Positions 5,956 through 43,349 of a stretch of DNA of 64,000 bases are shown here, one piece after another; position 1 is the stretch's first letter; every line of letters begins with the position of its first letter. The position numbers were made by a program, and so were the translations under genes. Under the pieces are notes generated by a model, which ran no database searches, was not told where the DNA came from, and saw nothing but the letters and a program-made list of their open reading frames with translations. The DNA is taken from NCBI GenBank assembly GCA_947487955.1, contig CANKYV010000002.1:36466-100465 (forward strand), given 5' to 3'. This DNA comes from Alphaproteobacteria bacterium (GTDB taxonomy: Bacteria; Pseudomonadota; Alphaproteobacteria; Paracaedibacterales; CAITNM01).

Positions 5956-6867
5956 ATGCTTCAAAGGTTTGCGCTATGCTTGTTAATAACCTCGTTAAAA
6001 TTAAATTCAGCAGATGATGAATTTAATATTCAGCAAAAAATTCAAACCACGACAAGTAAGCTTTACAATAACATCACACTGGCAGCCAAACGTTGTCTAG
6101 TGTCACTTCCTTTTGACTGCCTCATAATCACTAGGCAAGTAACTGGCGCCCCCTACTCAGAAATTTCCGAGAATTTAATTCGTAAAAACACATCTTTAAC
6201 AAAAATTTTTAAAGTTCATTTTATAGAAACTTTCCTTAGGGCTGAAATGATTTATAACCTTTTTCCTTTTGTCAGCAGAGGAACAAAAGAATGCTTTCCC
6301 AGATTTTCAGAGTTATATCCCTTAGCACCCTCTATTGCAGCAGCAACAGCAATAGCCATAGGAGATATAGTGACTGCAAATCCATTTGAGCGCGTGAAAG
6401 TTTGCTATATTCGTAAGCTACCTATTCCTTTTTATTCATCGGATAAATTTGATTTTTCTGAATTCGCTAAAAGTAGAAAATGGCTTTTCACAGGAGGTAG
6501 CGTAACTTTTTTATCAAGTTTTGTTCATGTAGGCACCTTTTTAACACTCAACCATCACCTAAAACACTGGTTATTTAATAAAGAGAATGCTCTTACATTT
6601 TATGAATCATGCTTAATAGGCCCAATCATATCAACAGCACAAGCCACCATTTCATTTCCTCTCCTAACTTTCCGTGCAAAATTGCATGCAGAGCAATTGG
6701 AAGTGTTATCCAGAGGTATAATCAGTATTTCAGCGCCGCAATATTTTTACCAACTCTACCAAACAAATATGTTACCTGGTTTATTTTATGGCTGGCGAGC
6801 ACGTGCTGCACGTGGAACTATTATGGCAATGCTTGACACTTATTGGTTAAATCAAACTGCAAAATAA
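5956..6867 (+). CDS. Divergent mitochondrial carrier family (MCF/SLC25)-like protein
   Basis: 303 aa with three repeats of about 90-100 aa. Each repeat begins with a degenerate carrier signature P-x-[DE]-x-x-[KR]: PFDCLIITRQ (about aa 52), PFERVKV (about aa 144) and PLLTFRAK (about aa 234). Each is followed by a G-rich second motif: WLFTGGSVTFL and GLFYGWRARAARGTIMAMLDTYW. The size and tripartite layout fit MCF, but individual motifs are degraded. Confidence 0.4.
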   Translation: MLQRFALCLLITSLKLNSADDEFNIQQKIQTTTSKLYNNITLAAKRCLVSLPFDCLIITRQVTGAPYSEISENLIRKNTSLTKIFKVHFIETFLRAEMIYNLFPFVSRGTKECFPRFSELYPLAPSIAAATAIAIGDIVTANPFERVKVCYIRKLPIPFYSSDKFDFSEFAKSRKWLFTGGSVTFLSSFVHVGTFLTLNHHLKHWLFNKENALTFYESCLIGPIISTAQATISFPLLTFRAKLHAEQLEVLSRGIISISAPQYFYQLYQTNMLPGLFYGWRARAARGTIMAMLDTYWLNQTAK

Positions 6868-10134: not shown

Positions 10135-10315
10135 AAAGGTTTGACAACAATAAGAAATTTTAAGTGAACCGTCAAATAAAAACATAAATTAAATAGACCA
10201 ATTCTCAACAAATTAAGAAAGTTTTTTGGAAAAACCCAAACTCCTCTAAAGGAATTTCTTGCTATTCGTCTAAAAAATTCTCATAATTTTATTAAAATAT
10301 TCTTTTTTTAATAGT

Positions 10316-11641
10316 ATGCCATCTATAACGCTTTCAAATGTTTACAAAGTTCAGTGGCACGAGGGAATGCTTCTCAGCCCTCAGCACTTTCAATATGGCG
10401 AGCAAAGGCTTGAGCAGTTATTTTATACATCAACTCTCTGTGGCGCTTACACTGGGTGGGGACTTTTAGAATTTGATATCGATAGAAATATGCTTAGCCA
10501 AGGCATTATAGAGGTATCACAACTTTTCGCCATTCTTCCAGATGGCACAATTGTGCTACATAGTTCAGAAAATACAAAAACACCACAACAAACACTTACC
10601 TTAAGATATAACTTAAATGATTTAGGTTTAAAAAATGCAACAGAAGTTACCATTTGTTTGTGCCTTTATAAGACAACTGATAGTAACAAACGTTATGATT
10701 CAGTTGAATACACCAATATCAGTGATGAAAATAGTGCAGACAATGTAATTAATCTCCCCATCCTGCGTCCCAAAATATTTCTAAATCCTGATGTTGTCCC
10801 CAATGAATGCAGTGGATTTCCATTAATAAAGCTCACATTCGATGGAAAACAATTCTCAATGCAGCCATTTCTTCCTGCATCTTTAATAATTCCTATTAAT
10901 CATCCAATTAGAAAATTATTAATGGAAATTGTTTTAAATGTCCGTCAAAAAGCTGCGTATCTTATTAACAAATCTCAGCAAGTAACTTCTGCTTCTATTT
11001 TTCGAGAAACACAGGTAACACTAAAACCACTTATATCGTGCCTTTGTATTCTTGAACCCTTAGTAGGACAAGAAAAACTACACCCCGAAAGATTATTTGA
11101 TCATTTAGTTAATGTTGCTGCTCACTTGTTGCCTCTCCAAACAACACAAATTCCTGGCATACTACCAACCTATGATCCCTTTGACCCAGGCAACAGTATT
11201 GGGTACTTTTTAAAAATTTTTGAAAAAACTATAGCATCCATACAACAACGTTATTTAAGTATACCGTTTCATCAGCAGGACAGACTCTTTTATCTTCATA
11301 TACAACCCCCATATATAACAGACGATCTATACGTAGGATTTCGCTGCCCCCCAGGCATGAGTGAAAAGCAAATGTATGATTGGGTTCAAGAAGCCATCAT
11401 TAGTTCAGACGAGAAAATTGAAGTCGTCACAACACGACGAATTTCAGGCGCTATCAGAACTTCGGTGCAAGAAGAGCTAGATGATCTTATACCTAATTCT
11501 AACACGTTAGTGTTCAAGATCAAAAAAGGAGATGAATTTGTCAAAGCAAAAAACAATCTAAATATTTTCAATCCTGGAGATACTCAAGAAAAGCGGCCAC
11601 TAGATATTACTCTTTTTGTTCGCCAGGATGACTCCCCATGA
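10316..11641 (+). CDS. tssK: Type VI secretion baseplate/membrane-complex connector TssK (ImpJ/VasE)
   Basis: 441 aa. The N-terminus KVQWHEGMLLSPQHFQYGEQRLE matches the hallmark TssK start (W.EGm.L.PQHFQQ.dRy). Its stop overlaps the tssL start (ATGA). Confidence 0.85.
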   Translation: MPSITLSNVYKVQWHEGMLLSPQHFQYGEQRLEQLFYTSTLCGAYTGWGLLEFDIDRNMLSQGIIEVSQLFAILPDGTIVLHSSENTKTPQQTLTLRYNLNDLGLKNATEVTICLCLYKTTDSNKRYDSVEYTNISDENSADNVINLPILRPKIFLNPDVVPNECSGFPLIKLTFDGKQFSMQPFLPASLIIPINHPIRKLLMEIVLNVRQKAAYLINKSQQVTSASIFRETQVTLKPLISCLCILEPLVGQEKLHPERLFDHLVNVAAHLLPLQTTQIPGILPTYDPFDPGNSIGYFLKIFEKTIASIQQRYLSIPFHQQDRLFYLHIQPPYITDDLYVGFRCPPGMSEKQMYDWVQEAIISSDEKIEVVTTRRISGAIRTSVQEELDDLIPNSNTLVFKIKKGDEFVKAKNNLNIFNPGDTQEKRPLDITLFVRQDDSP

Positions 11642-12438
11642 AAACACCCAGCCTTTTTCACCACGGTATAATAAGCGAAGAATTTGATGTTTTCTATTAT
11701 GAACTTTTGCACGTTAAAGAAGCAGCACTAAGAAGCTATACTGCGCCTTCAATAATAGCAGAAGAACAAACTGATGATTCAAAAACAATTACGGTTTCTG
11801 GTCCTGTTCTTTCTCTACAAGAACGATTAACTACATTTTTTGATCAGCAACGCGAACGATTTAACAGAATTTCTATCGGACCAAATGCTATTTTTATACA
11901 AGAAGCACAATATGTTTTTGTAAGCTTAGCTGATGAAATAATGATCAATCAGGCATGGCACGGCGCAGATTACTGGCGGCAAAACTGCCTTGAAATTAAA
12001 ATTTTTCAAACGCAAGTTGCTGGAGAGCGAATATTCACACAAATAGAAAGTCTTTTAAAAACAAATGATCCTTTGCAGCGTGAACTTGCAAGGGTTTATC
12101 TTTTGTCTCTTTCCCTAGGTTTTCAAGGACGCTTTCGAGGACAGAGAGGGTTGCAAATTTTATCCTACAAACAACAACTTTTTAGTTTTATTTATCATCG
12201 CTCACCAACACTCACACAAGGAGAACATGATTATATAATAGATGACTCCTTAAAATTTGTTTTTACCGAAGCACCCACCAAGGGACTTCCTGACATAAGA
12301 CCCTGGTCATTAGCAGCCTTAAGTGTATTGCTAATCTATTTATTTGTAAGCTATGGAATATGGATAATTATCTCCCAAGACCTTCATGAAGTTCTTGAGG
12401 GTATTTTTCATCTTACAAAGCAAGGACCGGTAGTTTAA
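11638..12438 (+). CDS. tssL: Type VI secretion membrane protein TssL (DotU/IcmH family)
   Basis: 266 aa with a cytoplasmic DotU-like domain (YLLSLSLGFQGRFRG) and a single C-terminal TM helix (WSLAALSVLLIYLFVSYGIWIII). There is no OmpA/peptidoglycan-binding extension. It is coupled to tssM (TAATG). Confidence 0.8.
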   Translation: MKTPSLFHHGIISEEFDVFYYELLHVKEAALRSYTAPSIIAEEQTDDSKTITVSGPVLSLQERLTTFFDQQRERFNRISIGPNAIFIQEAQYVFVSLADEIMINQAWHGADYWRQNCLEIKIFQTQVAGERIFTQIESLLKTNDPLQRELARVYLLSLSLGFQGRFRGQRGLQILSYKQQLFSFIYHRSPTLTQGEHDYIIDDSLKFVFTEAPTKGLPDIRPWSLAALSVLLIYLFVSYGIWIIISQDLHEVLEGIFHLTKQGPVV

Positions 12439-15400
12439 TGGGCCCTAATACTTCTAATATGTTTTTTGACTTCATTCAATTTATACAAAACCAAACAAGC
12501 AGCCTACACAGCCTTATCTTCTCATTATTGTTTTTTGGTTTAGTGATTATGTTGATATGTGCACTCGTTATTAACATGAGTATTAATAAAAATAAGCCTA
12601 TAAATCTTAATGAAAAAAAGTCCTTCTTTAAAAGAAAATTTTCTCTACCCCCACTTGGGGGGGTGGTCACCTCTTTTTTAGTAAAAAATAGATGGATAGA
12701 AGTTAACTCAATTAGTCAAATTTTTCTAAAAGGGCTGGGGTTTTTAAAAAAGCATTTTGGAGAATATGCCTTATACAGACTGCCTTGGTACTTGGTACTT
12801 GGCGCAAAAGACTCAGGAAAATCCACCCTTGTAAACCATACTCAGTTACATGAGCCACACAGTAGTCCAGATTTCAGTTTTCATGAACCAAACCCATCAA
12901 TTCAATGGAAATTTTTTAGCAGGGGTGTACTTATAGATGTCGCTGGTCGATTATTTCTAAATAATCCCGAGACAGAAACTGACACAAATTCCTGGCGCAA
13001 TCTTCTCATTCTCCTAGCGCGATATAGAGCTCAAAGACCTTTAAATGGTATTGTGCTGTGTATAAATGCAAAAGATCTTTATGGAAAAGAAAAGTTATCA
13101 CCCGATGCATTGCAAATTCGAGCAAATGCGATGTTACACACTCTAAGCAGAACACAAACCAGTTTACGCATACGCTTACCTATTTATGTGATTGTTACTC
13201 ATTGTGATGCAATCCCCGGATTTCAAAGTTTTGTTCAAGAATTGCCAACAAAAAATCAGGGAAATATACTGGGCTGGTCAAGCCCTTATAACCTACAGTC
13301 CCTTTATTCACCAAGCTGGATTGAAGAAGCCTTTCAATATCTTGATGAAAAAATTGACAACTTACGAACTGAACTTTTAAGTTCGGAAATAAATCCAAAT
13401 AATGCGGATGGGTTGTTTGTTTTCTCAAAAGAGCTTTTAACAATCAATGAAAATCTTTGCGGATACTTAAATCGTATTTTTCACAATAGTGCAACTCATG
13501 AAGCCCCAATCCTTCGAGGAATATATTTCACCGGTAACAGCGTTACACACGATTCAAATTTATCACTTACAAACGAACCTTCTTCGCAGCTATCACTCGA
13601 AGCACATTCAAATTCATCCATGTCGCTTGTGTTTTTGGAAGATTTATTTCAAGCAAAAATCTTCTCGGAAATAGGCATTGCTAAGCCTTTAATAGGAAAA
13701 ATTAGAACATTAAACCGAGGAGTAAGCTTAATTAGAAATGCAACTATATGTTTCACATTACTTGCAACTTATGGGCTATTTAATGCTTACGATACATTTG
13801 AAGAAAAAAAAGAACGAATTCTGCCTGTATTATCAAAAATGAGTGGTCTTTTAAGAGATATGCAACATTTAAAAATTGATGAGCCTGGACACTCCGGATC
13901 TTTGTTTGATACGTACGCACGCCAACTCCTTGAAATGATGCAAGAACTTCAACAAACCGAATTTTTTTCTGCTGCTGTTCCTGCTTCATGGTTTAGCCCA
14001 CTACATAAAGATTTACACGTAAGCTTACAGGTTGCCTATCAGGAAATAGTAATTCGTACAATTTATGTAGACTTGCTAATGAAAGCCAGAAATTTATTGC
14101 AGTTACGCCCAACAACCGCAGATCGATCAAATTCTCTAGCAGCACTTTTAAATCCTTTAACATCAAGCGAATATCTTCTCTTAAAGAAGTATGTTGAAGG
14201 CCTGCATGAACTAAATGACATGCTCTATAAGTTTAATAATTTAAAAAGTGCGCCCGATGCTCGAGACCTTGATAGTCTAGTTATGTACACCTTTAATGCA
14301 CACTTGCCAGAAACCTTTATTGGGCAATACGCAGGCTTTCGAAAGCTCTTAAACGAATCTGCTTATCCTTTAATAGATTTAAAGCCTTACCAGCAAATGG
14401 CTCGTCAAACTCTCTCTATCCTCTATGAAAATTTTTTAAATGCTCTATTTTCTAAAAATGACCCCTTAACACTCGTGTCGCGCATCCAAATTTTGATCGA
14501 TCAGCTACAAAGCCAAAATGAAAGACGTCTACTCGATCTCACTAGTCTTAGAAATGCCGTTGGAGATTTAACTATAACAGTACCATCTTTAGGAGAGCTT
14601 GGCTCAACTTGGATGGATGGAAAAAATTTCATGCCAGGAAAAGAATTTGACAAAATCCTAGATCACATTGACATGTCTCCTCTTTTTGGTCGCGATGTGA
14701 CTCAGTATCTAGTTGATCAAACTGCAATCGGCTTTAATCGTTTCAAAGCCTTTCTAGCAATGATCAATGACTCCTTGACAGATAAAAGCCTTAATCAGAA
14801 AGCATTGCCCTCTTCTCAGGGCCTATTAACCCTAGAAAAATACCTAACTTCCTTATTTAAGCTAAGCTTCATGGGGGCTCCTTCTGGCAAACCACTAACT
14901 ACAAAAATTCCAACAGGCAAGCTTGTATACTGGGACTTAAGCCTTGTACAGGCTGCCTATAACACAATGAAAGAATTTGACACCTTCATCAGTAAAGACT
15001 TATTGGCGTACCCAATATCAGTTCAAGAAAACATAAAAATAGCCGCCAGAATAAACTTACAAGAAGTCTTAATTGCAACACTTGGACGAGCCCAAACATT
15101 CATAGATACCCCAAAAGATATAAAGCCAGGAACAGAATCTGAACGCATATTGCGCGCTCAAATTAATGACTTTAAAGCCGTTGTTGATCCTCTTGGAAAG
15201 CTATTAGAGACTCTAAAACAAGACGATGTTAGCAAAGCTTACATAGACCTTCGTAATATACTCTGTAATCAGTCACAGTGGCTTCTTACCCATATTGATA
15301 CCTACATTAAGCAACATAAACTTTACAAAATGAAGCTTGATGATTTTGAATGGTGGGACGGAAAACCAGGCGCATCTGTTGCGGCTTTTGCTGTTCATGA

Positions 15401-16727
15401 TATCAATGATTTGAAGCACTACACAACTGTTCAGCGAGAATTACTAGTTGCTTCTATAAATGATTTTGCAAAACCAATTGTATCACTTCTTAAAACGCCC
15501 GCATTTGATGGAGCAGAAGACAGAGATGAAGAGCTTATTGAACGCTGGATAAGATTAACAGAACAGGTAGAAGCTTATAACAAAAAACAACCAAATAATT
15601 CACTTGCTCAACTTGAGAATTTTATTCTCAAAGATCTAAATGCTAGTAATTATAAAGATGCGCTTAAAAAGCTAAAACTCAAAGAACTCAACGAGATATC
15701 TGGCGATTATTTACTTGAAATTTTACGAGAAATTAAAGTAAAAATTTTGTCTCGCGCTGAAGCTTTACAGCGCCAACAAGCTATTGAAAATTACGAAAAT
15801 CTTGCTCTGTTTTTTAACAAAAATCTAAGAGGAAAATTTCCTTTTGTTGGTGCCGCTCTTGAAAAAAACACCGGAGAAGCAAATCCCGAAGACCTTCGTG
15901 AGTTTTTTGATTTATTCAAAGACTATGGTAACTCAACCAAAGAAATTCTAGATCAACTATACCAAATTGGCACTGACATGAAAGAAGTTGTGCAATTTTT
16001 GCTTGCAATGGAAGATGTTCGTCAGTTCCTTAATGCATACTTAAAAGATCCCAACGCAGATAAACCAACTTTCAATATTAAAGTTGATTTTAGAACTGCG
16101 CGCGATAAAGAAAGAGGCGGCAATATTATTGTTGATTGGTACTTAAAAACAGATGAAATAACCACTATTGATAAGCAAGATAAAAAAACCGAAGGAACTT
16201 GGTCGTTTGGCAAGCCTGTAACGGTCGGTTTTAAATGGCCAGAGACAGGAAAAACCCCCAAACCAACATCTGATTCAGGCCAAGCTTCTTTGAAAGTTGA
16301 AGATTCCACAGCTGAATTTGTCTATGATAGCCAATGGGCATTGCTATGGTTAATTCGCGATCATCTAGCCCCAGAAGGATCCTACTCTAAAATTGCCGCC
16401 CCTAATCCGTACGTCCTAAAATTCAGCATGCCCTTAACCGATCAAACATTTACAACCGTGTACTGCTCTATAAGCCTTCTTGATTCCTCTGGTAAACCCA
16501 AGGGCTCACCAAAAATTATTACAATACCTACATTTCCAACTTTAGCACCAGATTTACCCAAAAAAGCCAAAGAAATAAAAGATAACCCAGTCTTAACCGA
16601 AGGAACAATAGAAGCCGTAGATTTTGATACCCTTATTGGCAAGCAAAAAAACACACCAAAAGAAGAAACGACTGATGGCCCTCAGGAAGCCCCTGAAGAA
16701 AAAGATAAAGAAGAGGGGGATCAATGA
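12438..16727 (+). CDS. tssM: Type VI secretion membrane protein TssM (IcmF family), long form
   Basis: 1429 aa with an N-terminal TM, a Walker A NTPase motif (WYLVLGAKDSGKSTLV), a further TM at about aa 430-450, a large periplasmic IcmF-like region (NLRGKFPFVGAALEKN...EDLREFFDLF) and an acidic low-complexity tail (EAPEEKDKEEGDQ). Confidence 0.85.
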   Translation: MGPNTSNMFFDFIQFIQNQTSSLHSLIFSLLFFGLVIMLICALVINMSINKNKPINLNEKKSFFKRKFSLPPLGGVVTSFLVKNRWIEVNSISQIFLKGLGFLKKHFGEYALYRLPWYLVLGAKDSGKSTLVNHTQLHEPHSSPDFSFHEPNPSIQWKFFSRGVLIDVAGRLFLNNPETETDTNSWRNLLILLARYRAQRPLNGIVLCINAKDLYGKEKLSPDALQIRANAMLHTLSRTQTSLRIRLPIYVIVTHCDAIPGFQSFVQELPTKNQGNILGWSSPYNLQSLYSPSWIEEAFQYLDEKIDNLRTELLSSEINPNNADGLFVFSKELLTINENLCGYLNRIFHNSATHEAPILRGIYFTGNSVTHDSNLSLTNEPSSQLSLEAHSNSSMSLVFLEDLFQAKIFSEIGIAKPLIGKIRTLNRGVSLIRNATICFTLLATYGLFNAYDTFEEKKERILPVLSKMSGLLRDMQHLKIDEPGHSGSLFDTYARQLLEMMQELQQTEFFSAAVPASWFSPLHKDLHVSLQVAYQEIVIRTIYVDLLMKARNLLQLRPTTADRSNSLAALLNPLTSSEYLLLKKYVEGLHELNDMLYKFNNLKSAPDARDLDSLVMYTFNAHLPETFIGQYAGFRKLLNESAYPLIDLKPYQQMARQTLSILYENFLNALFSKNDPLTLVSRIQILIDQLQSQNERRLLDLTSLRNAVGDLTITVPSLGELGSTWMDGKNFMPGKEFDKILDHIDMSPLFGRDVTQYLVDQTAIGFNRFKAFLAMINDSLTDKSLNQKALPSSQGLLTLEKYLTSLFKLSFMGAPSGKPLTTKIPTGKLVYWDLSLVQAAYNTMKEFDTFISKDLLAYPISVQENIKIAARINLQEVLIATLGRAQTFIDTPKDIKPGTESERILRAQINDFKAVVDPLGKLLETLKQDDVSKAYIDLRNILCNQSQWLLTHIDTYIKQHKLYKMKLDDFEWWDGKPGASVAAFAVHDINDLKHYTTVQRELLVASINDFAKPIVSLLKTPAFDGAEDRDEELIERWIRLTEQVEAYNKKQPNNSLAQLENFILKDLNASNYKDALKKLKLKELNEISGDYLLEILREIKVKILSRAEALQRQQAIENYENLALFFNKNLRGKFPFVGAALEKNTGEANPEDLREFFDLFKDYGNSTKEILDQLYQIGTDMKEVVQFLLAMEDVRQFLNAYLKDPNADKPTFNIKVDFRTARDKERGGNIIVDWYLKTDEITTIDKQDKKTEGTWSFGKPVTVGFKWPETGKTPKPTSDSGQASLKVEDSTAEFVYDSQWALLWLIRDHLAPEGSYSKIAAPNPYVLKFSMPLTDQTFTTVYCSISLLDSSGKPKGSPKIITIPTFPTLAPDLPKKAKEIKDNPVLTEGTIEAVDFDTLIGKQKNTPKEETTDGPQEAPEEKDKEEGDQ

Positions 16728-17917
16728 GCAATAGCCCCATCTCAACGCCGTCACCTCTTTTTGAGAAATTATTAGCGCCCCTTACCACAAACAATGGTGT
16801 GGGAGAATGGTTACGCTACGATCCTGTTTATGTGAAAATTCGTGATGCAAGGCGCGAAGAAAATGATGGCATGCGCAGAGAAAGCTGGGAAGGAGAGTTA
16901 AAACATGCCGACTGGCAAGAGGTTGAAAACCTTGCTGTCGAGACATTAGAAAAAAAATCAAAAGATTTGCAACTTCTTGCTTGGCTAATAGAAGCAAGAT
17001 TACATTTATATGGTTTAGATGTTTTTTCTGAAGACATAGGGCTCCTACTAGCGTTCATGAAATCTTTTTGGAGCAACTGTTACCCGCAAAAAACAGAAGA
17101 TCCCGAACAAGAATTTCGTACACACATTTTAGAGGCGCTTCTAAGAGCAACAACGGAAACCCTTATTCTTGAGCCGTTTACAGAACTTTCACCAATATTG
17201 AATCAGCCTATAAACTTAGCAAAATGCTACGAAAACGATAGTTTAGAAAAAATGTCTAAAAAAGGGGGGGCGGCCACTGACTCTTATCAAAAAGCCTTGG
17301 CAAATGGCCTCATAACAATAGGCAGAATCAAAAATGCATTTTCTGAGGTAAGCAAAGAAGCAGGCACAACGAAATTGGCCAAGCTAGAAACATGCATACA
17401 AAACCTGAAAGATATCGATGATTTTCTTGATAAAGAAATTGGAAATGAAGGCCCTAATTTTGATGGGATAATTAATCACCTACAAGAAATGAAGGGATTA
17501 TATAGTCTATGCCAAAAAGTTATTAGTGAAAAAACAACAAAAGAAAATCCCTCAACCTCAAAATTAACATCTCCAGAAGAAGAAATTTCTCAAGCACCAG
17601 AAGAAAGTGATCCAAGCAAAAAAACCATAAATGATCGAGCCGGTGTCTATCAAGCAATTCGCCAACTGGGAGATTTTTTGTTAATGTTAGAGCCTCACAG
17701 CCCATCTCCAGCCATCCTAAAGCTTATCGGAGGGTGGGAGAATAAAACTCTATCGCAAATCTTAGTAGAACTACAGTCCGCCCAGCCAGAGACCCGATCA
17801 CTTTTAGAGCTACTGGCTAGAGCAACACAACAAGAAAAAGTTCAACCTACCCCCGCCAACAACAGCCCTCTCGGGTCAATAGACACGAGCGCCCTAAGCA
17901 ATCTAGCCCAAGGATAG
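16724..17917 (+). CDS. tssA: Type VI secretion protein TssA (ImpA N-terminal domain family)
   Basis: 397 aa. It has ImpA_N-type motifs (GEWLRYDPVYVKIRDARREEN; DLQLLAWLIEARL) and the C-terminal motif EPHSPSPAILKLIGGWENKTLSQILVEL, typical of short TssA proteins. It is coupled to tssM (ATGA). Confidence 0.75.
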   Translation: MSNSPISTPSPLFEKLLAPLTTNNGVGEWLRYDPVYVKIRDARREENDGMRRESWEGELKHADWQEVENLAVETLEKKSKDLQLLAWLIEARLHLYGLDVFSEDIGLLLAFMKSFWSNCYPQKTEDPEQEFRTHILEALLRATTETLILEPFTELSPILNQPINLAKCYENDSLEKMSKKGGAATDSYQKALANGLITIGRIKNAFSEVSKEAGTTKLAKLETCIQNLKDIDDFLDKEIGNEGPNFDGIINHLQEMKGLYSLCQKVISEKTTKENPSTSKLTSPEEEISQAPEESDPSKKTINDRAGVYQAIRQLGDFLLMLEPHSPSPAILKLIGGWENKTLSQILVELQSAQPETRSLLELLARATQQEKVQPTPANNSPLGSIDTSALSNLAQG

Positions 17918-19855: not shown

Positions 19856-20230
19856 ATAAAATAATATATATATTTAAAAGGTTTTAGTATTGGTAATAGG
19901 GCTTGTGTAAAAGTCTAATCCCAAGAATGTCCCCATCTTATCCACAAGATTTTCCATTTGTATAGGGGGGAATTGCCAAGTGTGGTGCGGTTATCTAAAA
20001 TTTTTTCAAATCTGGGGATAATTTTTGTTTGTGTGTTTATAATCGGTGTATAAGTTTCTAATTTTGGTGAGTAAGTGTGTGTTTATGCACAGGCACCATT
20101 TTTCCCACAATTAGTTGTTCACCACTTGTGTGTTTTTCCACAGCCTTGTGCACAGAAATTTTTTAATTTGTAAAAACCATATCAAAGTATTACGTGTGTA
20201 ATAAATTATTTAATGTTGATGTAAAATTTT
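19856..20230. other. oriC: Candidate chromosomal replication origin (oriC): DnaA-box cluster plus AT-rich tract next to hemE
   Basis: Matches to TTATNCACA are: TTATCCACA 19938-19946 (perfect), TGGGGATAA 20013-20021 (inverted, 1 mismatch), TTATGCACA 20083-20091 (perfect), TTTCCCACA 20101-20109 (2 mismatches), TTTTCCACA 20134-20142 (1 mismatch) and TTGTGCACA 20146-20154 (1 mismatch). An AT-rich run (TAAAATAATATATATATTTAAAA) lies at 19856-19880. hemE adjacency is the conserved origin position in alphaproteobacteria. Confidence 0.65.
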
Positions 20231-23047: not shown

Positions 23048-23329
23048 ATGAAGAGAAATTTATTTGGTATTGATACTGAACCCTCAAAAAAGGAACCAGC
23101 AAAAGAAAAATCAAAATCTACTTTTCCTGATCTTTCTTTAATCAAGGGTTTACAAAAGCAAGAAGCAACATCAGAATCTGTTTTTTGGCACAGGATTTTA
23201 CTTAATAAATCTATCCGTCAGCAAAAGCCTATTCAATTTTTGCAAATTTTATCAAACGAAATTGCCCTGAAAAAAGGAAAAAAAGATTCATATTTGGCAA
23301 TTTTAGATAGTTTAAAACGAGGCACCTAA
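23048..23329 (+). CDS. Hypothetical protein
   Basis: A 93-aa lysine-rich ORF. I recognised no family. Confidence 0.3.
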   Translation: MKRNLFGIDTEPSKKEPAKEKSKSTFPDLSLIKGLQKQEATSESVFWHRILLNKSIRQQKPIQFLQILSNEIALKKGKKDSYLAILDSLKRGT

Positions 23330-23823
23330 AGAATAGGTTTTTCTGAGTTTGCTACTAAATCTTTACTTCTGAGAACTTTTTTCAAAATTTTAGAATCAAG
23401 ATTTTTTTGATTAATTATTATTTTTTTTTCTTTTTTTTCAGATTTTTTTAATGATTTTCTTTTTGGTTCAGAAGAGAGAAGTGCTATAGAATTTGCCACA
23501 ACAATTTCTGATGTCTTAGTTTTTATCTCTGGATCGATGCTATTTTTTAACCAACTAACGTGCTCAGCATGTTGCATACACTGTTGAGTAATGTTCGGAA
23601 TATTTTTCATAGTACTACTGTGTAAAAGTTCTTCCAAATTCTTTCGCATTAAAGAAAGCGCAATTTGAGCCACTTTCTTCATATCCACATTTTTTAACTG
23701 CTTACTGATTTCTTCAGTTTTTTCAATAGAAGTCTTACAACGAAATGCGGCTTCCGCAGAAGACATAGCATTGTATTTTTGAAAACATATAAAAAGTGCA
23801 ATAACTACTAGTCTGATTATCAT
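23326..23823 (-). CDS. Hypothetical secreted or membrane-anchored protein
   Basis: 165 aa with an N-terminal hydrophobic segment (IIRLVVIALFICF) and a lysine-rich C-terminus. It lies immediately downstream of the hemY-like gene on the same strand. Confidence 0.4.
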   Translation of the reverse strand: MIIRLVVIALFICFQKYNAMSSAEAAFRCKTSIEKTEEISKQLKNVDMKKVAQIALSLMRKNLEELLHSSTMKNIPNITQQCMQHAEHVSWLKNSIDPEIKTKTSEIVVANSIALLSSEPKRKSLKKSEKKEKKIIINQKNLDSKILKKVLRSKDLVANSEKPIL

Positions 23824-26942: not shown

Positions 26943-27758
26943 CTACTTTAATTTCATTATTTGTTTTTTCCAGATATTAGGCCAGTTACTATCATGCTCA
27001 AAACCATCAATTTCTATAATGATTATCTTGTCAGAATTGATTTTTTGTTTATACATTAAGCCCAAATCAATTGTTGTATTGGTATCGCTTGTGCCTAGAA
27101 AATGGATTTGTGGAATTTTGCTCAAAATGTGCATATTTTCTATAGGATCAAGCGATTCAAAAAGTGGCTCTGCGTTATGATAATGCGTCCAGCTTTTATG
27201 ATCTAAGTTTCCTGCAAACGAAATAATTAGCTGAAGATTTTTTAAATGAGGCGCTAAGAGTAGTGCAACGGAAGCACCACCTGAATAGGCAACAAGCTCA
27301 ATGGTTTCAAAATGAAATTGTTGTTGGCAACTTTTTATTGTTTCTAAAATTGATCCAATAACTTCTGGTGAGTATCTGGCCGTCGTCCAGTATTTAGAAT
27401 TGGGATTTTCACTTTTTATGTAATGATAAGGCCTATTAACCACAATCTTGGTGAGATTTCTATTATCAACACAAGCAAGCCTTAATGCCATAGGGTCGGT
27501 AGGGGTAGAATTTAGCGCTATTTCACCATATTTGTTTAGAACAAGCCCATCACCCTCAAGGTAAATAATCGCATGTTTACTGTTGTGCGCCTGATAAAAA
27601 ATTTGTATGGGGAATATTGAGGTTTGAATAATAGACGCTTGGTAATGATTTTGTGCGGCTAAGTCAAAAGTTTTATTAATACGCATTTGGTCACTGCTAC
27701 AACCTAATAAAAAAAGAGCGGTGAAAATCACCGCCCTTTTTAGTCTTATTAAGTACAC
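26943..27758 (-). CDS. Lipoprotein, alpha/beta-hydrolase fold
   Basis: 271 aa with a lipobox (FTALFLLGCSS) and a nucleophile-elbow-like motif (LVAYSGGASVAL). Confidence 0.5.
   Translation of the reverse strand: MYLIRLKRAVIFTALFLLGCSSDQMRINKTFDLAAQNHYQASIIQTSIFPIQIFYQAHNSKHAIIYLEGDGLVLNKYGEIALNSTPTDPMALRLACVDNRNLTKIVVNRPYHYIKSENPNSKYWTTARYSPEVIGSILETIKSCQQQFHFETIELVAYSGGASVALLLAPHLKNLQLIISFAGNLDHKSWTHYHNAEPLFESLDPIENMHILSKIPQIHFLGTSDTNTTIDLGLMYKQKINSDKIIIIEIDGFEHDSNWPNIWKKQIMKLK
27709..27736 (-). terminator. Rho-independent terminator downstream of the outer-membrane protein gene
   Basis: On the minus strand the sequence is GGGCGGTGA-TTT-TCACCGCTC followed by a T-run, giving a 7-bp perfect GC-rich stem. 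It lies just after the stop of the 27764..28945 gene and overlaps the signal-peptide codons of the next gene. Confidence 0.55.
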
Positions 27759-27763
27759 TTCTA

Positions 27764-28945
27764 TTAGAAGCCGTAGTGTAAACGAAGACCAGTTACGTAA
27801 GTTTTCAACTGACCACGTGCTGTGTAGTCAAATTGTAAGCTTCCTGATAACGCATCATCATTACGCACGTGGAAACCAGCTCCACCACCGAATGCTGAAC
27901 GGTTAACTTTGTATTCTGCTGCTTTATCAAATGTAACACCTTGGTTTTTCTTCACGTCGTATTGACCGTGAATGTTGATGAAAGGCATTACACTTGGAGT
28001 CATTTGGTAACCTACCAAAACTTTTGCAGTCGCTGTTTGTGCTTTAAATGTGTTTGAAGGTACTGCTACAGCACTCCCATTATAAGCAGCTTGAGCTGAT
28101 TTTTCTGTAAATTTATCCATTTTGCTTTGCATCATTATATATCCAAGTTGCAAGCTAAATGAAGTTTTGTTTACTTTGTTTACAAAGTTAGCAAATACAC
28201 CACCAAACATAGCCTTTGACTTTGGTGAGCTAGTAAATGTGTTATCAATGTGATTTACAACACCTGCAGCGTTTGTTTGCTGTGTAGTTATCCAACGACG
28301 ACGATCATTACCTTTTGTTGTGCTCCAACCACCAACAAATTCAAAATTAAAGTTTTTGTGTGGAACAATGATAAAATATGGATTTACACCCAATGTATCT
28401 TGCTTCATTTCACCATTGTTAAACTCAGTTCTTGCGTTCAAGTGTGAATAGCTCAATCCTAAACCAGCGCAGAACATATTGTTGAATTTGTAGTCAGCAC
28501 CAATCATGGTTAGGTATGATTGACCATTCCACTTTTGATCAGTAACAGAATTGTCTATTGCGCCAAAGCTTGCACGTATCCATGTAGAAGCACGGTGTGC
28601 AGATCCTGATGAACCAGCAATTTTTGTACCAGTATCAGCACCCATTGCAGCAGCATTTGTGCCAACACCACTGTTCATTGATTCAGCAGCTTCTGCAGTT
28701 ACAGCACCAACTAAACCTAAAATCTTAGTTGTTTTTATTGCCATAATTGTTGGCTCAGTAACAACAGCACCAGGGGTTGTTGCAACAGAGCTATAAGCAT
28801 AATAACCGTCAGCTTTAGTTACACCTGCTGCTGGAGTAGGGGCGTTAACAGGCTTACCACCTTTTGGAGGCGCGAACAAATAGCCGCTTCCTGCACATGC
28901 AGCTATAAGCGCTAGCGCTCTTGCTGTCTTAAATTGTTTAAACAT
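27764..28945 (-). CDS. Outer-membrane beta-barrel protein (autotransporter-beta/porin-like)
   Basis: 393 aa with a signal peptide (ALALIAACAGSGYLFA), an Ala/Gly/Thr-rich N-terminal region, alternating beta-strand patterns (YLTMIGADYKF, GLGLSYSH) and a C-terminal aromatic residue (LRLHYGF). Confidence 0.6.
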   Translation of the reverse strand: MFKQFKTARALALIAACAGSGYLFAPPKGGKPVNAPTPAAGVTKADGYYAYSSVATTPGAVVTEPTIMAIKTTKILGLVGAVTAEAAESMNSGVGTNAAAMGADTGTKIAGSSGSAHRASTWIRASFGAIDNSVTDQKWNGQSYLTMIGADYKFNNMFCAGLGLSYSHLNARTEFNNGEMKQDTLGVNPYFIIVPHKNFNFEFVGGWSTTKGNDRRRWITTQQTNAAGVVNHIDNTFTSSPKSKAMFGGVFANFVNKVNKTSFSLQLGYIMMQSKMDKFTEKSAQAAYNGSAVAVPSNTFKAQTATAKVLVGYQMTPSVMPFINIHGQYDVKKNQGVTFDKAAEYKVNRSAFGGGAGFHVRNDDALSGSLQFDYTARGQLKTYVTGLRLHYGF

Positions 28946-36307: not shown

Positions 36308-37168
36308 TTAGAGCTTTTCGATTTCTTCTTCTGGCATGCCGGTATATTTTATTATATCCTTAGTTGGCATTCCTCCTCTTTTCATATTAGATGCTATTTC
36401 TAATTTTCTTCTTTCCAAGCCTGCTTCAAAACCCTTAGATTCATATTTCTTCAAGGTATTCGCCTCAATCCTTAGCCATTTGAGATGATCTTCATAAGCC
36501 TGGCGCTCTTCCTCCCCAAAATTCATCACCGTTAAGACATCCAGCGCTTTCTTCAAATACGGCTTATCTAGATTTTTTGGTAAATTATCCCGATTGAGTA
36601 AATCATGACGAGTTAAAAACGCTCCCCAGACATCTAATGAGGTTTTAACCTTCTCAACAATGTCCTTAAGCTCTTCGTTTTGATTATTACAAAACTTCTT
36701 TAGCTCAATAGTATGTAATTCCAAATCCTTAAAGTAGACAAGGTTGCTGTCTTTTTCACGAATGTTAAAGACGTTGTGATACTTTTCTACCCCAAGAATT
36801 GAGGTGAAATTTAAAATATGAATACCAATTGCTTTAGAAAGCTGCGAATAATCTTCCCCACCCTTTAATTGTTCGGTATAAACTTTAGCCCAATAATAAA
36901 GAGCTCTTTTGTCATAATCTGCTTCATCACTAATCTGGATCTCAATGTTAAAATACTTGCCATTCTCACCCTTAGCTTTGATGTCTAGAATTGAGAGTTT
37001 ATCATTTTTAAAGTTTTGAGGATTGTAAGGATTCAATAGGATGACATCAGCAACCTTATCTTTCTCACTGACAATTGAATTAATCAATGAAATAAGTAGG
37101 TCTTTGTTTTCTTCCACACCAAAGATTTTCTTAAAAGCGATATCAACTCTTGGATTAATGTTTTCCAT
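36308..37168 (-). mobile_element. Rpn/YhgA-like PD-(D/E)XK nuclease family transposase-like protein
   Basis: 286 aa. The N-terminus VDIAFKKIFGVEENKDLLISLINSIV and the core LSILDIKAKGENGKYFNIEIQ are typical of the putative-transposase PDDEXK/Rpn family. I saw no terminal inverted repeats. Confidence 0.65.
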
Positions 37169-39201: not shown

Positions 39202-39672
39202 TTAACTCAGGTAATGTCTTACTTCGTACGCATCACTTTCTAGAACAACCTGCCATCCTTCTTTATAATCTGGCGCCAGTATAATTGGCGCTTTAGTATT
39301 TACGCTAATTCGTTGTTTTTCAGATTCTTGATGAGCTGTTGCAACTAAAAATATAGCGACATCTTCAAACCCAAGATCTCGAGCTTGTAGATGAACTTTT
39401 AAATCTGCGGCGTCAATAAGGCGATCACCTCTAGGGCCTGCTGCTGCATCTGCTATAATTAGCGTGATATCTTGTTGTTCCATTGATTGTAAACACATAT
39501 AAGAGTCTGGCGTATTTTCACAAGGCAACTCTGCAACAATAAAATTTCTCAAATTATTAAACCCAAAAATTCCATTTTTAAAATAAAAGATATCTTCAAG
39601 GGTATATTCAAGTTCTCCAATTTTAGTTGTAAGAGATCTTTTAAGTAAATTTGACGTGGTAGTTCCAAACAT
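39202..39672 (-). CDS. fliW: Flagellar assembly factor FliW
   Basis: 156 aa with FKNGIFGFNNLRNFIV, CLQSMEQQDITLIIAD and VNTKAPIILAPDYKEGWQVVLESDAYEVRHYL, matching the FliW (DUF180) pattern. It lies downstream of flgL. Confidence 0.75.
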   Translation of the reverse strand: MFGTTTSNLLKRSLTTKIGELEYTLEDIFYFKNGIFGFNNLRNFIVAELPCENTPDSYMCLQSMEQQDITLIIADAAAGPRGDRLIDAADLKVHLQARDLGFEDVAIFLVATAHQESEKQRISVNTKAPIILAPDYKEGWQVVLESDAYEVRHYLS

Positions 39673-39677
39673 AATTT

Positions 39678-40586
39678 TTATCCTTCTAACATTCTTGCTG
39701 CATTTTGAGCATTACGCATTTGTTGGGTAAGCAAATGCTGACAAATTTGTTCCATCACATTTGATGACATAAGCTCTGTTAATAATTCCTCGACGCTATC
39801 TTCTGTATAATGTTCTCTTAGTTCCATTGCTTCTTGGATTGCATTTGATAATTCTTCGTCTTGATTCTCAACTTTATTGATTTCGTCTAATTTGTTGTAG
39901 TATTTTGACAGCAGTGCTTTTTGTGCGTTTGCAGCTAAAGCGCTTGCCTGATCAGAAGCAGAATCTGCTCCACTAGTTGATTCCCCAAGTTTCATAATTG
40001 CTTGATAAAGTGCTCCCACTTCTGCATCAAAATCGCTTCCTGATAAGCTAACAGTATCTCCCTCATCGTTAATATAAACAGTGATCGATCCTGATACAGG
40101 CGTGCTATAAGCAGTTGGTGATGCATTATATGCAGCAAAAGTTGTCGCATTCTTCATTGGTGGGTTTTGTGTTGCAATACCCCCCATTGCATATTCATCA
40201 GATATGGAATTGATGCTGTTGCCGATGTTTTGAAACAAATTTTTTATGTCGTCTTGAGTTGCAGCTAGTCCAGGTCTTGTATCTCCCATTGTGTAGCTAC
40301 CTGGCATAAATTCAGTTTGAATTCTTTGTGCTAGCTTTATGTAATTATCTAGTGCTAAAAGCTGAGTTCTCAAGCGATTTTCAACAAGCACATTATCTTT
40401 TTTAAATCCTTCAAGGCGTTCGATTTTATTTGTTGTTGTAATGCTAATATCAATCTGAGTACTAGTTTTTTCAGACCAAGCAGCTTGTGTCCCTCCAGTC
40501 GCAAGTCTTTCACTAAGCTTGAGACCCTGCCTACGAGTTTCGCTCACTCTTCCCGCCATAGAACCTAAACTATCTATACTACTCAT
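39678..40586 (-). CDS. flgL: Flagellar hook-associated protein 3 (FlgL-like, divergent)
   Basis: 302 aa, located directly downstream of flgK. The helical N- and C-termini are flagellin-family-like (C-terminal LLTQQMRNAQNAARMLEG). The sequence is divergent. Confidence 0.5.
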   Translation of the reverse strand: MSSIDSLGSMAGRVSETRRQGLKLSERLATGGTQAAWSEKTSTQIDISITTTNKIERLEGFKKDNVLVENRLRTQLLALDNYIKLAQRIQTEFMPGSYTMGDTRPGLAATQDDIKNLFQNIGNSINSISDEYAMGGIATQNPPMKNATTFAAYNASPTAYSTPVSGSITVYINDEGDTVSLSGSDFDAEVGALYQAIMKLGESTSGADSASDQASALAANAQKALLSKYYNKLDEINKVENQDEELSNAIQEAMELREHYTEDSVEELLTELMSSNVMEQICQHLLTQQMRNAQNAARMLEG

Positions 40587-40609
40587 ACAAAATTCCTTAC
40601 CTTAATTAT

Positions 40610-42553: not shown

Positions 42554-42562
42554 ATTTTCCTC

Positions 42563-42979
42563 CTACACTACATGCTGCACACCAAGACTTGGTGCGTAAG
42601 AGGTTTCAAATAGTTTTCCAAACGCTGTGTAAAACGTTGGTTTAATTCTTACTTTCTCAAAATACAAATCCATTAGTTTCTTATTTCCTCGACCCGAAAG
42701 ATCCAGTAAATCAAGATTTTTTTGCATTGCATTCGTAATGATTTTTAGTAATTCATCAACTTTTTGTCGCTGCGATGCTTCTAGTTGTTTCCAGCAAGTT
42801 GGATCAAGTATTTGATTGGCAAAATGTTGGTTACTTTTAAAAAGCTCTGTCTTCTTTTGTAACAATGAATCCAATTGAGTCAGGCGTGTGTCTTTTAGAT
42901 ACTGCTCTTCCATTTCCATAACTTGCAGTAAGCTTTCTGCTGTATTACAAAAATCCTTATATATCTCAGAGCCAGACAT
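42563..42979 (-). CDS. Possible FlgN-like flagellar chaperone
   Basis: A 138-aa all-helical protein positioned between the rod-binding protein gene and flgK. The call is from context only. Confidence 0.35.
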   Translation of the reverse strand: MSGSEIYKDFCNTAESLLQVMEMEEQYLKDTRLTQLDSLLQKKTELFKSNQHFANQILDPTCWKQLEASQRQKVDELLKIITNAMQKNLDLLDLSGRGNKKLMDLYFEKVRIKPTFYTAFGKLFETSYAPSLGVQHVV

Positions 42980-43346: not shown

Positions 43347-43349
43347 AAT

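What the first reader, a model, noticed from the sequence alone, without database searches (positions are those of the whole stretch)
10316..17917. Stand-alone tssK-tssL-tssM-tssA operon: a T6SS membrane-complex/connector/cap module with no sheath, tube, spike or TssJ nearby
Four T6SS core genes are tightly translationally coupled (ATGA, TAATG and ATGA junctions). They sit between parB/tRNA-Tyr and hemH in the origin-proximal region. Canonical T6SS-i loci carry 13 core genes, yet no tssB/C, hcp, vgrG, tssE/F/G, clpV or tssJ candidate is recognisable anywhere in this 64-kb window. TssL has no peptidoglycan-binding extension. TssM is unusually long (1429 aa) with an acidic low-complexity tail, and I recognised only one N-terminal TM helix before the P-loop. 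One possibility is that the apparatus is split across the genome, with the envelope-spanning module genetically uncoupled from the contractile module. Alternatively this is a remnant or a repurposed TssKLM(A) envelope complex, which would be unusual in a likely intracellular alphaproteobacterium.
Basis: partly seen in the sequence, partly recalled or inferred. Interest (0 to 1): 0.7.

Follow-up and report, generated by a model that had tools for sequence, protein, structure and literature searches.

The report
Split type VI secretion operon, Holosporales-type
This is an intact four-gene operon for the membrane-anchor, baseplate and cap parts of a type VI secretion system in a Finniella-like protist endosymbiont; scattering the system's genes over several loci is already published as the norm for this bacterial group, so the finding is real but ordinary.

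Summary
Four translationally coupled ORFs at 10316-17917 are tssK, tssL, tssM and tssA. They lie between parB/tRNA-Tyr and hemH, about 2 kb from a likely oriC, and no other T6SS gene is in the 64-kb window.

The organism is a Finniella-like member of the Paracaedibacteraceae (Holosporales).

The "remnant" option is contradicted:
- The block and its flanks are syntenic in relatives.
- Its dN/dS (0.04-0.15) is no higher than that of neighbouring housekeeping genes.
- A promoter-like element upstream of tssK is conserved.

- The TssM belongs to a large "long TssM" subfamily (at least 1,253 clusters at 50% identity).
- Pfam and TIGRFAM models do not recognise its periplasmic part.
- It has one predicted N-terminal TM helix instead of two.
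- In other bacteria this subfamily sits in contiguous lipoprotein-K-L-M-A-B-C-hcp-E-F-G-clpV clusters.

The window block is therefore the 5' segment of a fragmented cluster. Whether this genome holds the other loci could not be tested.

The parts
10259..10298 (+). Promoter-like element of the operon: TTGCTA, a 17-nt spacer, CATAAT, then the conserved run TTTTATTAAAAT. It ends 18 nt before the tssK start codon.
   Evidence: Consensus scan. The block is nearly invariant in 5 relatives while the rest of the spacer diverges, and it is kept in L005, where uvrA rather than parB/tRNA lies upstream. The 26-nt core is unique in the window, with 0 matches expected by chance. In metagenomes it recurs upstream of tssK in 3 further parB-tssK loci. 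Promoter function is inferred, not shown.
10316..11641 (+). tssK (441 aa), baseplate subunit that links the baseplate to the membrane complex.
   Evidence: TIGR03353 180.8 bits (cut-off 100); PF05936. PDB TssK 5Y0E/5M30/6GIY. 72-80% identical in Finniella-like relatives.
11638..12438 (+). tssL (266 aa), short-form DotU-family inner-membrane subunit. The start overlaps the tssK stop (ATGA).
   Evidence: PF09850 91.5 bits (cut-off 27). PDB 4V3I/6Y4R/3U66. No PG-binding domain hit.
12304..12375 (+). TssL C-terminal transmembrane anchor (about residues 223-246). Only about 20 residues follow it.
   Evidence: Kyte-Doolittle maximum 2.38.
12438..16727 (+). tssM (1429 aa), member of the long-TssM subfamily. 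The start overlaps the tssL stop (TAATG).
   Evidence: PF14331 169 bits. TIGR03348 208 bits, below its cut-off of 388, matching N-terminal residues 93-480 only. hhalign against 4 canonical TssM gives 100% probability for the N-terminal ~460 columns only. Full-length alignments at 25-27% identity to the TssM of contiguous T6SS clusters L020/L021/L018.
12507..12578 (+). TssM single N-terminal transmembrane helix (about residues 24-47), followed by a K/R-rich stretch.
   Evidence: Kyte-Doolittle maximum 3.09. A single segment is seen across the whole clade and in L018/L019, whereas canonical Leisingera, Rhizobium and Moraxella TssM show two.
12801..12824 (+). Walker A motif GAKDSGKS (residues 122-129) of the cytoplasmic NTPase domain.
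   Evidence: Regex match. G, G and K are nearly invariant in the 27-sequence alignment.
13725..13787 (+). TssM second transmembrane segment (about residues 430-450), the counterpart of canonical TM3.
   Evidence: Kyte-Doolittle 1.3 (weak). It aligns to the TM3 region of canonical TssM in hhalign.
13818..16064 (+). TssM periplasmic helical region (residues 461-1209) with no Pfam model.
   Evidence: AF2 mean pLDDT 82, mostly helices. No Foldseek PDB match at E <= 0.001. No PDB sequence or profile hit.
16065..16487 (+). TssM C-terminal beta-sandwich domain (about residues 1210-1350), followed by a conserved P-x-F-P-x-x-A-P motif.
   Evidence: AF2 pLDDT mostly 84-96. The top Foldseek hit of the 280-residue model (1150-1429) that holds this domain is 6IXH_U, the TssM chain of the EAEC TssJLM membrane core complex: E 4.8e-3, prob 1.00, 178 columns. 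A weak hhalign match lines up the W-P and G-x-W motifs. Invariant columns P904, F906, P907, A910 and P911 of the fragment.
16578..16724 (+). Acidic, variable tail of TssM (residues 1381-1429); its last 28 residues are predicted disordered.
   Evidence: 15 D/E against 6 K/R in 49 residues. pLDDT below 50 for residues 1402-1429. No consensus in the alignment.
16724..17917 (+). tssA (397 aa), ImpA_N-family cap/priming protein. The start overlaps the tssM stop (ATGA). The 3' end overlaps convergent hemH by 71 nt.
   Evidence: TIGR03363 178.6 bits (cut-off 160.85), full-length match; PF06812. PDB 6HS5 TssA. hemH coordinates.

Best explanation
The region is one transcription unit, tssK-tssL-tssM-tssA. 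It encodes four parts of a contractile type VI secretion system (T6SS):
- TssL and TssM, the inner-membrane and periplasm-spanning complex.
- TssK, the baseplate subunit that docks onto that complex.
- TssA, the cap protein that primes tail polymerisation.

The host is a Finniella-like member of the Paracaedibacteraceae (Holosporales), a group of protist endosymbionts. In this group the T6SS genes are normally dispersed over four or more loci. The sheath/tube, baseplate-wedge and spike genes are expected elsewhere on the chromosome, and the proteins would assemble in trans into one machine.

The block corresponds to the first segment of an ancestral contiguous cluster: lipoprotein-tssK-L-M-A-B-C-hcp-E-F-G-clpV. 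That cluster survives intact in other bacteria with the same long TssM subtype. Genome rearrangement separated the segments in Holosporales.

Shown:
- The gene identities, translational coupling, conserved synteny and purifying selection.
- A conserved promoter-like element.
- Membership of the long-TssM subfamily.
- Contiguous clusters in other members of that subfamily.

Taken from the literature: the other loci exist in related genomes, and the genes are transcribed in a related endosymbiont.

Inferred: the other loci exist in this genome, and the machine is functional and acts on the host or on competitors.
For: Identity.

Operon structure: ATGA/TAATG/ATGA junctions.

Organism: TssM is 74-83% identical to MAGs labelled Ca. 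Finniella inopinata or Alphaproteobacteria.

Literature:
- PMC8163844 states the conserved multi-locus arrangement, including [tssK-tssL-tssM-tssA], for Paracaedibacteraceae and neighbouring families.
- Its Supplementary Table 3 lists a 4272-bp tssM in the same K-L-M-A run, tssB-tssC-hcp, tssF-tssG, tssE and vgrG at other locus tags, and RNA-seq reads for all of these.
- Reviews and genome papers call the T6SS conserved in almost all Holosporales.

Synteny:
- rsmG-parA-parB-tssKLMA-hemH-hemE is kept in L003 and L004; the shorter or rearranged loci L001, L002, L005 and L006 keep the block with the flanks they cover.
- In more distant lineages tssK-L-M is also alone among housekeeping genes. This includes Ca. 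Paracaedibacter symbiosus.

Selection:
- dN/dS is 0.04-0.15 for the tss genes, against 0.12-0.19 for hemH/hemE.
- TssM pN is 0.09-0.16, below hemH at 0.17-0.21.

Promoter: a conserved -35/-10-like block.

Subtype:
- A profile of the TssM periplasmic region finds 1,253 representative proteins at E <= 1e-3, and the six scanned carry only PF14331.
- L020 and L021 carry the whole set K-L-M-A-B-C-hcp-E-F-G(-clpV) contiguously.
- The window proteins match those clusters far better than a canonical alphaproteobacterial cluster.

Spike link: a PAAR-like DUF4280 gene sits beside tssA in Paracaedibacter-type loci.
Against: - The rest of this genome is not available, so the sheath, tube, wedge and spike loci were not seen for this organism or for any of the Finniella-like MAGs. 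Exact-sequence look-ups of the window's TssK and TssM found no contig.
- No TssJ-type lipoprotein is present in the window or next to the block in Holosporales-type loci.
- Published surveys report TssJ and Hcp as undetected in many Holosporales. The assembled machine may therefore be non-canonical.
- dS is saturated, so the dN/dS values are approximate.
- The fold match of the TssM C-terminal domain is marginal (E 4.8e-3, TM 0.33).
Confidence: 0.85

Rival explanations
1. Repurposed autonomous envelope complex. TssK-L-M-A persists without a contractile tail and does something else in the envelope, for example acting as a scaffold or as a non-contractile export site.
For: No tail gene lies within the window or within +/-10 kb in any Holosporales-type locus. 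The TssM periplasmic part is highly divergent and longer than canonical, with a different predicted TM topology. TssJ is not detected. Surveys report Hcp and TssJ as missing in Holosporales.
Against: Related complete genomes do carry tssB, tssC, an Hcp-like gene, tssE/F/G and vgrG at other loci. TssK and TssA have no known role without a baseplate and sheath (established T6SS knowledge). The same long TssM type sits in full contiguous T6SS clusters with Hcp, sheath, wedge and ClpV. A PAAR-like gene lies next to tssA in Paracaedibacter.
Confidence: 0.06
2. Decaying remnant of a T6SS that this lineage has lost.
For: Only 4 of 13 core genes are present in 64 kb. Endosymbiont genomes undergo reduction.
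Against: All four ORFs are intact and translationally coupled. In six genome-scan loci they are as conserved as, or more conserved than, the flanking hemH/hemE, and further copies of the block turn up in metagenome contigs. The promoter block is conserved. Even 0.6-Mb Holosporales genomes retain the T6SS.
Confidence: 0.04
3. Ordinary contiguous T6SS cluster cut by the window edge, or a type IVB (Dot/Icm) IcmF-DotU pair rather than a T6SS.
For: IcmF and DotU homologues also occur in T4BSS. The TssM equivalog model is below its cut-off.
Against: The block is more than 10 kb from the left edge of the window and 46 kb from the right edge, and housekeeping genes flank it on both sides. The TssK and TssA equivalog models are above their cut-offs. 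The IcmH_DotU_IVB model scores 21.9 against a cut-off of 50. No Dot/Icm gene was seen in the window.
Confidence: 0.01

Closest known systems
Split T6SS of Holosporales endosymbionts, e.g. Ca. Bodocaedibacter vickermanii CPBP_00934-00937 (PMC8163844); the 'modified T6SS' of George et al. (bioRxiv 10.1101/719211)
   Same: Same gene order, tssK-tssL-tssM-tssA, as an isolated locus. TssM is the same length (4272 bp against 4290 bp) and TssL is also short (759 bp against 801 bp). Same bacterial order, and the family is named in the paper.
   Different: Bodocaedibacter has a T6SS-associated lipoprotein gene (CPBP_00933) directly upstream of tssK. Here tRNA-Tyr and parB lie upstream, and no such gene is in the window. 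This genome's other T6SS loci were not seen.
Contiguous T6SS clusters with the same long-TssM subtype (metagenome contigs L020 and L021; looser in L018)
   Same: tssK-L-M-A are in the same order. TssM aligns over about 1,380 residues at 25-27% identity, and TssK, TssL and TssA all match (E 1e-24 to 1e-54). The TIGR03363-type TssA is also seen in L018. L018 also has a single N-terminal TM segment in TssM.
   Different: There the block continues directly into tssB-tssC-hcp-tssE-tssF-tssG(-clpV). It is preceded by a conserved ~170-aa lipoprotein. The hosts are 54-60% GC organisms, not Holosporales.
Canonical T6SS-i membrane complex TssJ-TssL-TssM (EAEC Sci-1, PDB 6IXH) and the tssJ-K-L-M sub-operon of canonical clusters (e.g. 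Moraxella plasmid L015, Leisingera plasmid L013)
   Same: tssK-tssL-tssM adjacency. The TssM N-terminal NTPase domain plus the following TM aligns at 100% hhalign probability. The C-terminal beta domain has 6IXH TssM as its top fold match.
   Different: - No TssJ.
- The periplasmic region matches no Pfam PF06761/PF06744 model and is not detectably homologous by profile.
- TssM is about 200-270 aa longer.
- One rather than two N-terminal TM helices are predicted.
- TssL is the short form, whereas the plasmid examples carry long forms.
TssJ-less non-canonical membrane complex of Acinetobacter baumannii (PMC10564176)
   Same: A working T6SS without TssJ, in which an extra TssM feature and lineage-specific envelope proteins take over TssJ's roles. 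It is a precedent for a functional TssJ-less TssLM complex.
   Different: Different TssM lineage and different accessory proteins (TsmK and others). The Acinetobacter genes are clustered. No homology to those accessory proteins was tested here.

Membership tests
T6SS core components (TssK, TssL, TssM, TssA) | TssK: match to the curated equivalog model above its cut-off. | tested here: met
   TIGR03353 180.8 bits against 100; PF05936 90.8 against 23.4.
T6SS core components (TssK, TssL, TssM, TssA) | TssL: DotU domain plus a single C-terminal TM anchor. | tested here: met
   PF09850 91.5 bits against 27. TM at about residues 223-246. The stricter TIGR03349 model scores 84.3, just under its cut-off of 89.95.
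T6SS core components (TssK, TssL, TssM, TssA) | TssM: N-terminal IcmF-related NTPase domain with Walker A. | tested here: met
   PF14331 169.3 bits against 25. GAKDSGKS at residues 122-129. hhalign gives 100% probability to canonical TssM N-termini.
T6SS core components (TssK, TssL, TssM, TssA) | TssM: canonical periplasmic domains (PF06761 ImcF-related, PF06744 IcmF_C) and the full-length equivalog TIGR03348. | tested here: not met
   No Pfam hit beyond residue 417. TIGR03348 scores 208 against 388 and matches residues 93-480 only. Neither the single-sequence nor the profile search of PDB found a TssM chain.
T6SS core components (TssK, TssL, TssM, TssA) | TssM: C-terminal beta-sandwich domain with the fold of the TssJ-binding domain. 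| tested here: inconclusive
   The top Foldseek hit is 6IXH_U (TssM of the EAEC membrane core complex) with prob 1.00. However E is 4.8e-3, TMq 0.33 and rmsd 6.6 A. hhalign on the C-terminal parts gives only E 0.008.
T6SS core components (TssK, TssL, TssM, TssA) | TssM: three TM helices (an N-terminal hairpin plus TM3). | tested here: not met
   Hydropathy shows one N-terminal segment plus a weak TM at about residues 430-450. Three of four canonical controls show the hairpin. This is hydropathy only; no dedicated topology predictor was run.
T6SS core components (TssK, TssL, TssM, TssA) | TssA: ImpA_N domain and the full-length equivalog. | tested here: met
   TIGR03363 178.6 bits against 160.85, covering 3-351 of 353 profile positions; PF06812 97 bits.
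Complete T6SS-i apparatus | Sheath (TssB/C), tube (Hcp), wedge (TssE/F/G) and spike (VgrG) genes in the same genome. | not testable with these tools
   Only the 64-kb window is held and none of these genes is in it. Exact look-ups of the window's proteins found no contig.
Complete T6SS-i apparatus | TssJ outer-membrane lipoprotein adjacent to tssK. | tested here: not met
   tRNA-Tyr and parB lie upstream. No hit for Moraxella TssJ. No hit for an HMM of the subtype's own tssK-upstream lipoprotein. Absence elsewhere in the genome was not tested.
Holosporales split T6SS arrangement (PMC8163844) | An isolated tssK-tssL-tssM-tssA locus in that order, flanked by non-T6SS genes. | tested here: met
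   The same is seen in 6 close relatives.
Holosporales split T6SS arrangement (PMC8163844) | Host belongs to Paracaedibacteraceae, Bodocaedibacteraceae or Caedimonadaceae. | tested here: met
   The best genome hits are MAGs titled Ca. Finniella inopinata or Alphaproteobacteria, at 74-83% TssM identity. Finniella is placed in Paracaedibacteraceae. No rRNA or phylogenomic placement was done.
Holosporales split T6SS arrangement (PMC8163844) | Companion loci [tssB-tssC-hcp], [tssG-tssF] and [ywqK-vgrG] elsewhere in the genome. | not testable with these tools
The literature covers related genomes only.
Long-TssM T6SS subtype (defined here) | A periplasmic region that matches the A5 profile over its full length, with only PF14331 recognised by Pfam. 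| tested here: met
   The window sequence is the first row of the profile alignment. 1,253 representatives match at E <= 1e-3, most over about 900 profile positions. Six sampled members carry only PF14331.

The most novel reading that the evidence does not exclude
The long-TssM T6SS subtype may build its envelope-spanning complex differently from the EAEC paradigm. It would use a two-TM TssM with a longer, sequence-unrelated helical periplasmic region. Its own lipoprotein family would stand in for TssJ.

The Holosporales branch would then have removed even that lipoprotein from the operon, and perhaps from the genome. The result would be a truly TssJ-less membrane complex in obligate intracellular bacteria.

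If so, part of the published 'missing TssJ' and 'modified T6SS' calls would reflect a real structural variant rather than weak models.
Probability: 0.3. Interest if true: 0.45.

Novelty: already known. Interest (0 to 1): 0.25.

Why it matters
For this locus, little. It adds one more genome to a documented pattern, and it confirms that the operon is under selection in a freshwater Finniella-like lineage.

Two side results are more useful.

First, standard Pfam and TIGRFAM T6SS models recognise only the N-terminal third of this TssM type. They also miss the lipoprotein encoded upstream of tssK in the subtype. Automated surveys will therefore under-call these systems, or label them "incomplete" or "modified".

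Second, contiguous K-L-M-A-B-C-hcp-E-F-G clusters with the same TssM type show where the ancestral cluster was broken in Holosporales. The breakpoints coincide with functional sub-modules.

Because the T6SS is the leading candidate for host manipulation in Holosporales (PMC11909080), correct component calling matters for that field.

Tried and rejected
- **Exact-sequence look-up of the window's TssK and TssM** to find the source contig: nothing on record. The TssM sequence is nevertheless in the protein collection, on a 111-kb contig.
- **Foldseek of the whole 969-residue periplasmic model:** only generic helical-repeat noise. Re-predicting the last 280 residues was needed before the TssM hit appeared.
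- **PDB searches with TssM and with a 27-sequence profile:** no TssM chain found, not even for the N-terminal domain.
- **Homologue search with the N-terminal 460 aa:** returned mostly fragments and was of little use.
- **Reaching sheath or spike loci of Finniella-like genomes through the PAAR-like DUF4280 protein next to tssA in L010:** DUF4280 is 55-60% identical across unrelated phyla, so the hits cannot be assigned to a lineage.
- **Testing whether the conserved tssK promoter motif marks other T6SS operons:** a metagenome scan found only further parB-tssK loci and one AT-rich chance match without genes.
- **Supplements of PMC9992710:** no per-gene T6SS table for Finniella.
- **TssJ candidates in the window:** the lipoprotein-like ORFs at 26943-27758, 23326-23823 and 677-1264 gave no T6SS hit.
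- **The T4BSS IcmF/DotU reading:** considered and rejected.

Full report
**Observation**

Their junctions are ATGA, TAATG and ATGA.

Profile searches support the names.
- TssK is above the curated equivalog cut-off (TIGR03353, 180.8 against 100).
- TssA is also above its cut-off (TIGR03363, 178.6 against 160.85).
- TssL passes Pfam DotU (91.5 against 27) and narrowly misses TIGR03349.
- TssM passes Pfam IcmF-related_N (169 bits). It reaches only 208 of the 388 bits required by the full-length TssM equivalog. The match stops near residue 480 and nothing in Pfam covers the last ~950 residues.
- Solved T6SS proteins are hit by sequence for TssK, TssL and TssA, but not for TssM.

- TssL is a short form with one C-terminal TM and no PG-binding domain.
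- TssM has one strong N-terminal hydrophobic segment, a Walker A motif at residues 122-129 and an acidic, disordered tail.

tRNA-Tyr and parB lie upstream. hemH and hemE lie downstream.

**No other T6SS gene in the window**

- Pfam scans of twenty unassigned or uncertain ORFs gave none.
- The small intergenic ORFs are Hfq, L21, L27, FliQ, a rhodanese and noise.
- Six-frame tblastn used canonical proteins (Leisingera, Rhizobium, Moraxella, Vibrio) and same-subtype proteins (L020/L021). The query set covered TssB, TssC, Hcp, TssE, F, G, J, ClpV, VgrG, PAAR and DUF4280. It hit only the known tssK, tssL and tssM.

**Organism and literature**

A genome-collection scan with TssM returned six loci at 74-83% identity. 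All came from MAGs titled Ca. Finniella inopinata, Alphaproteobacteria or Proteobacteria. Finniella belongs to the Paracaedibacteraceae, Holosporales.

The literature already describes this arrangement. [quoted passage not shown]

Its Supplementary Table 3 gives more detail.
- It lists a K-L-M-A run with a 4272-bp tssM.
- It lists the other loci at distant locus tags.
- RNA-seq reads are reported for these genes.

George et al. describe a "modified T6SS" without detectable Hcp and TssJ in Holosporales. A 2025 review calls the T6SS conserved in almost all sequenced genomes of the group.

**Tests against the remnant reading**

The order rsmG-parA-parB-tssKLMA-hemH-hemE is kept in L003 and L004. 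The shorter loci L001, L002 and L006 keep the tss block with the flanks they cover. In L005 uvrA is inserted before tssK.

Protein identity to these relatives:

| Protein | Identity |
|---|---|
| TssM | 74-83% |
| TssL | 74-80% |
| TssK | 72-80% |
| TssA | 63-71% |
| HemH | 68-70% |
| HemE | 64-70% |

Nei-Gojobori dN/dS is 0.04-0.15 for the tss genes and 0.12-0.19 for hemH/hemE. Synonymous sites are saturated, so only the ranking is firm.

A 40-nt block just upstream of tssK is nearly invariant in five relatives while the rest of the spacer is not. The block reads TTGC[T/C]A, 17 nt, CATAAT, TTTTATTAAAAT. Its core is unique in the window. In metagenomes the core recurs upstream of tssK.

**How deep the stand-alone arrangement goes**

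More distant homologues are 33-47% identical in the periplasmic region. They too have tssK-tssL-tssM alone among housekeeping genes. tssA is either downstream, divergent upstream, or absent nearby.

In Ca. Paracaedibacter symbiosus the block is tssM-L-K with a divergent DUF4280 (PAAR-like) gene and tssA.

**What the TssM is**

An AF2 model of residues 461-1429 is confident (pLDDT 82). It shows a long helical region, a C-terminal beta-sandwich and a disordered tail.

- The whole model matches nothing in the PDB.
- The last 280 residues have TssM of the EAEC TssJLM core complex (6IXH_U) as their top hit. Probability is 1.00 but E is marginal at 4.8e-3.
- Profile-profile comparison with four canonical TssM aligns the NTPase domain through the second TM at 100% probability.
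- For the C-terminal parts it gives only a weak match that lines up the W-P and G-x-W motifs.

A single N-terminal TM segment is seen across the clade. Three of four canonical controls show the usual hairpin.

A profile of the periplasmic region was searched against 1.84 billion representatives.
- It finds 1,253 proteins at E <= 1e-3 and 724 at E <= 1e-30.
- Most are 1,350-1,500 residues long and matched end to end.
- Six sampled members carry only PF14331.
- One is from the gammaproteobacterium Ca. Venteria ishoeyi.

**Context of that subfamily**

- Contigs L020 and L021 carry contiguous clusters: lipoprotein-tssK-tssL-tssM-tssA-tssB-tssC-hcp-tssE-tssF-tssG(-clpV).
- L018 has lipoprotein-K-L-M-A with tssB-tssC 7 kb away.
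- Venteria has K-L-M alone.

The window's four proteins match these clusters much better than a canonical Leisingera cluster. TssM aligns over about 1,380 residues. TssK scores E 1e-49 to 1e-54, against 1e-11 for Leisingera.

The window block is therefore the first segment of a cluster that is contiguous elsewhere. It was cut after tssA, at the boundary named in PMC8163844.

The tssK-upstream lipoproteins of L018, L020 and L021 form one family.
- They are 42-56% identical, and two of the three have lipoboxes.
- Pfam and NCBIfam TssJ models do not recognise the L018 protein, the one member that was scanned.
- An HMM of the family finds nothing in the window or in any Holosporales-type locus.

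**Conclusion**

The best explanation is an ordinary, functional part of the dispersed Holosporales T6SS (confidence 0.85).

The main limit is that the remaining loci could not be looked for in this genome.

The non-canonical TssM and the absent lipoprotein leave room for a real structural variant of the membrane complex. A precedent for a TssJ-less complex exists in Acinetobacter.

Noticed in passing
window 19856-20230: Likely chromosomal replication origin. The 375-bp spacer next to hemE holds one perfect DnaA box (TTATCCACA at 19938) and three one-mismatch boxes (20013, 20083, 20134). It coincides with the cumulative GC-skew minimum. The tss operon therefore ends about 2 kb from oriC and is transcribed towards it, head-on to the leftward fork.
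   Followed up: partly
window 5956-6867 (+): A 303-aa ORF with a Pfam Mitochondrial carrier (PF00153) hit above the gathering score (25.4 against 22.3 bits, E 1.2e-5). This is a eukaryote-type solute carrier, rare in bacteria and plausibly host-derived.
   Followed up: no
window 17847-17917: The 3' ends of tssA (+) and hemH (-) overlap convergently by 71 nt. Relatives show overlaps of 4 nt (L003) and 53 nt (L004).
   Followed up: partly
window 39202-44960 and 58791-60922: Flagellar genes are present in this endosymbiont-lineage genome: fliW, flgL-like, flgK-like, flgN, a rod-binding protein, flgI-like, flhB, fliR and fliQ. The flgI-like ORF is 536 aa, which from memory is longer than usual for FlgI.
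   Followed up: no
L018 6976-7512; L020 7218-7724; L021 7048-7464: A conserved ~170-aa lipoprotein family lies directly upstream of tssK in long-TssM clusters. It occupies the position of tssJ. Pfam and NCBIfam did not recognise the L018 member (the only one scanned), and an HMM of the family does not match Moraxella TssJ. It may be a divergent or analogous TssJ.
   Followed up: partly
L019 10001-17677 (Ca. Venteria ishoeyi): A 2,558-aa TssM in which the periplasmic helical region matches the profile in four separate stretches, that is, an internally repeated periplasmic domain. Three small ORFs, one of them PemK-like, lie between tssK and tssL.
   Followed up: no
window 27764-28945 (-) and 36308-37168 (-): An autotransporter beta-domain protein (PF03797, E 1.6e-17) and a PD-(D/E)XK family transposase-like gene (PF12784, E 1e-58).
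   Followed up: no
L025 783-808: The only metagenome match to the tssK promoter motif that is not upstream of tssK. It lies in a 2.5-kb AT-rich contig with no ORF over 69 aa and is probably a chance match.
   Followed up: yes
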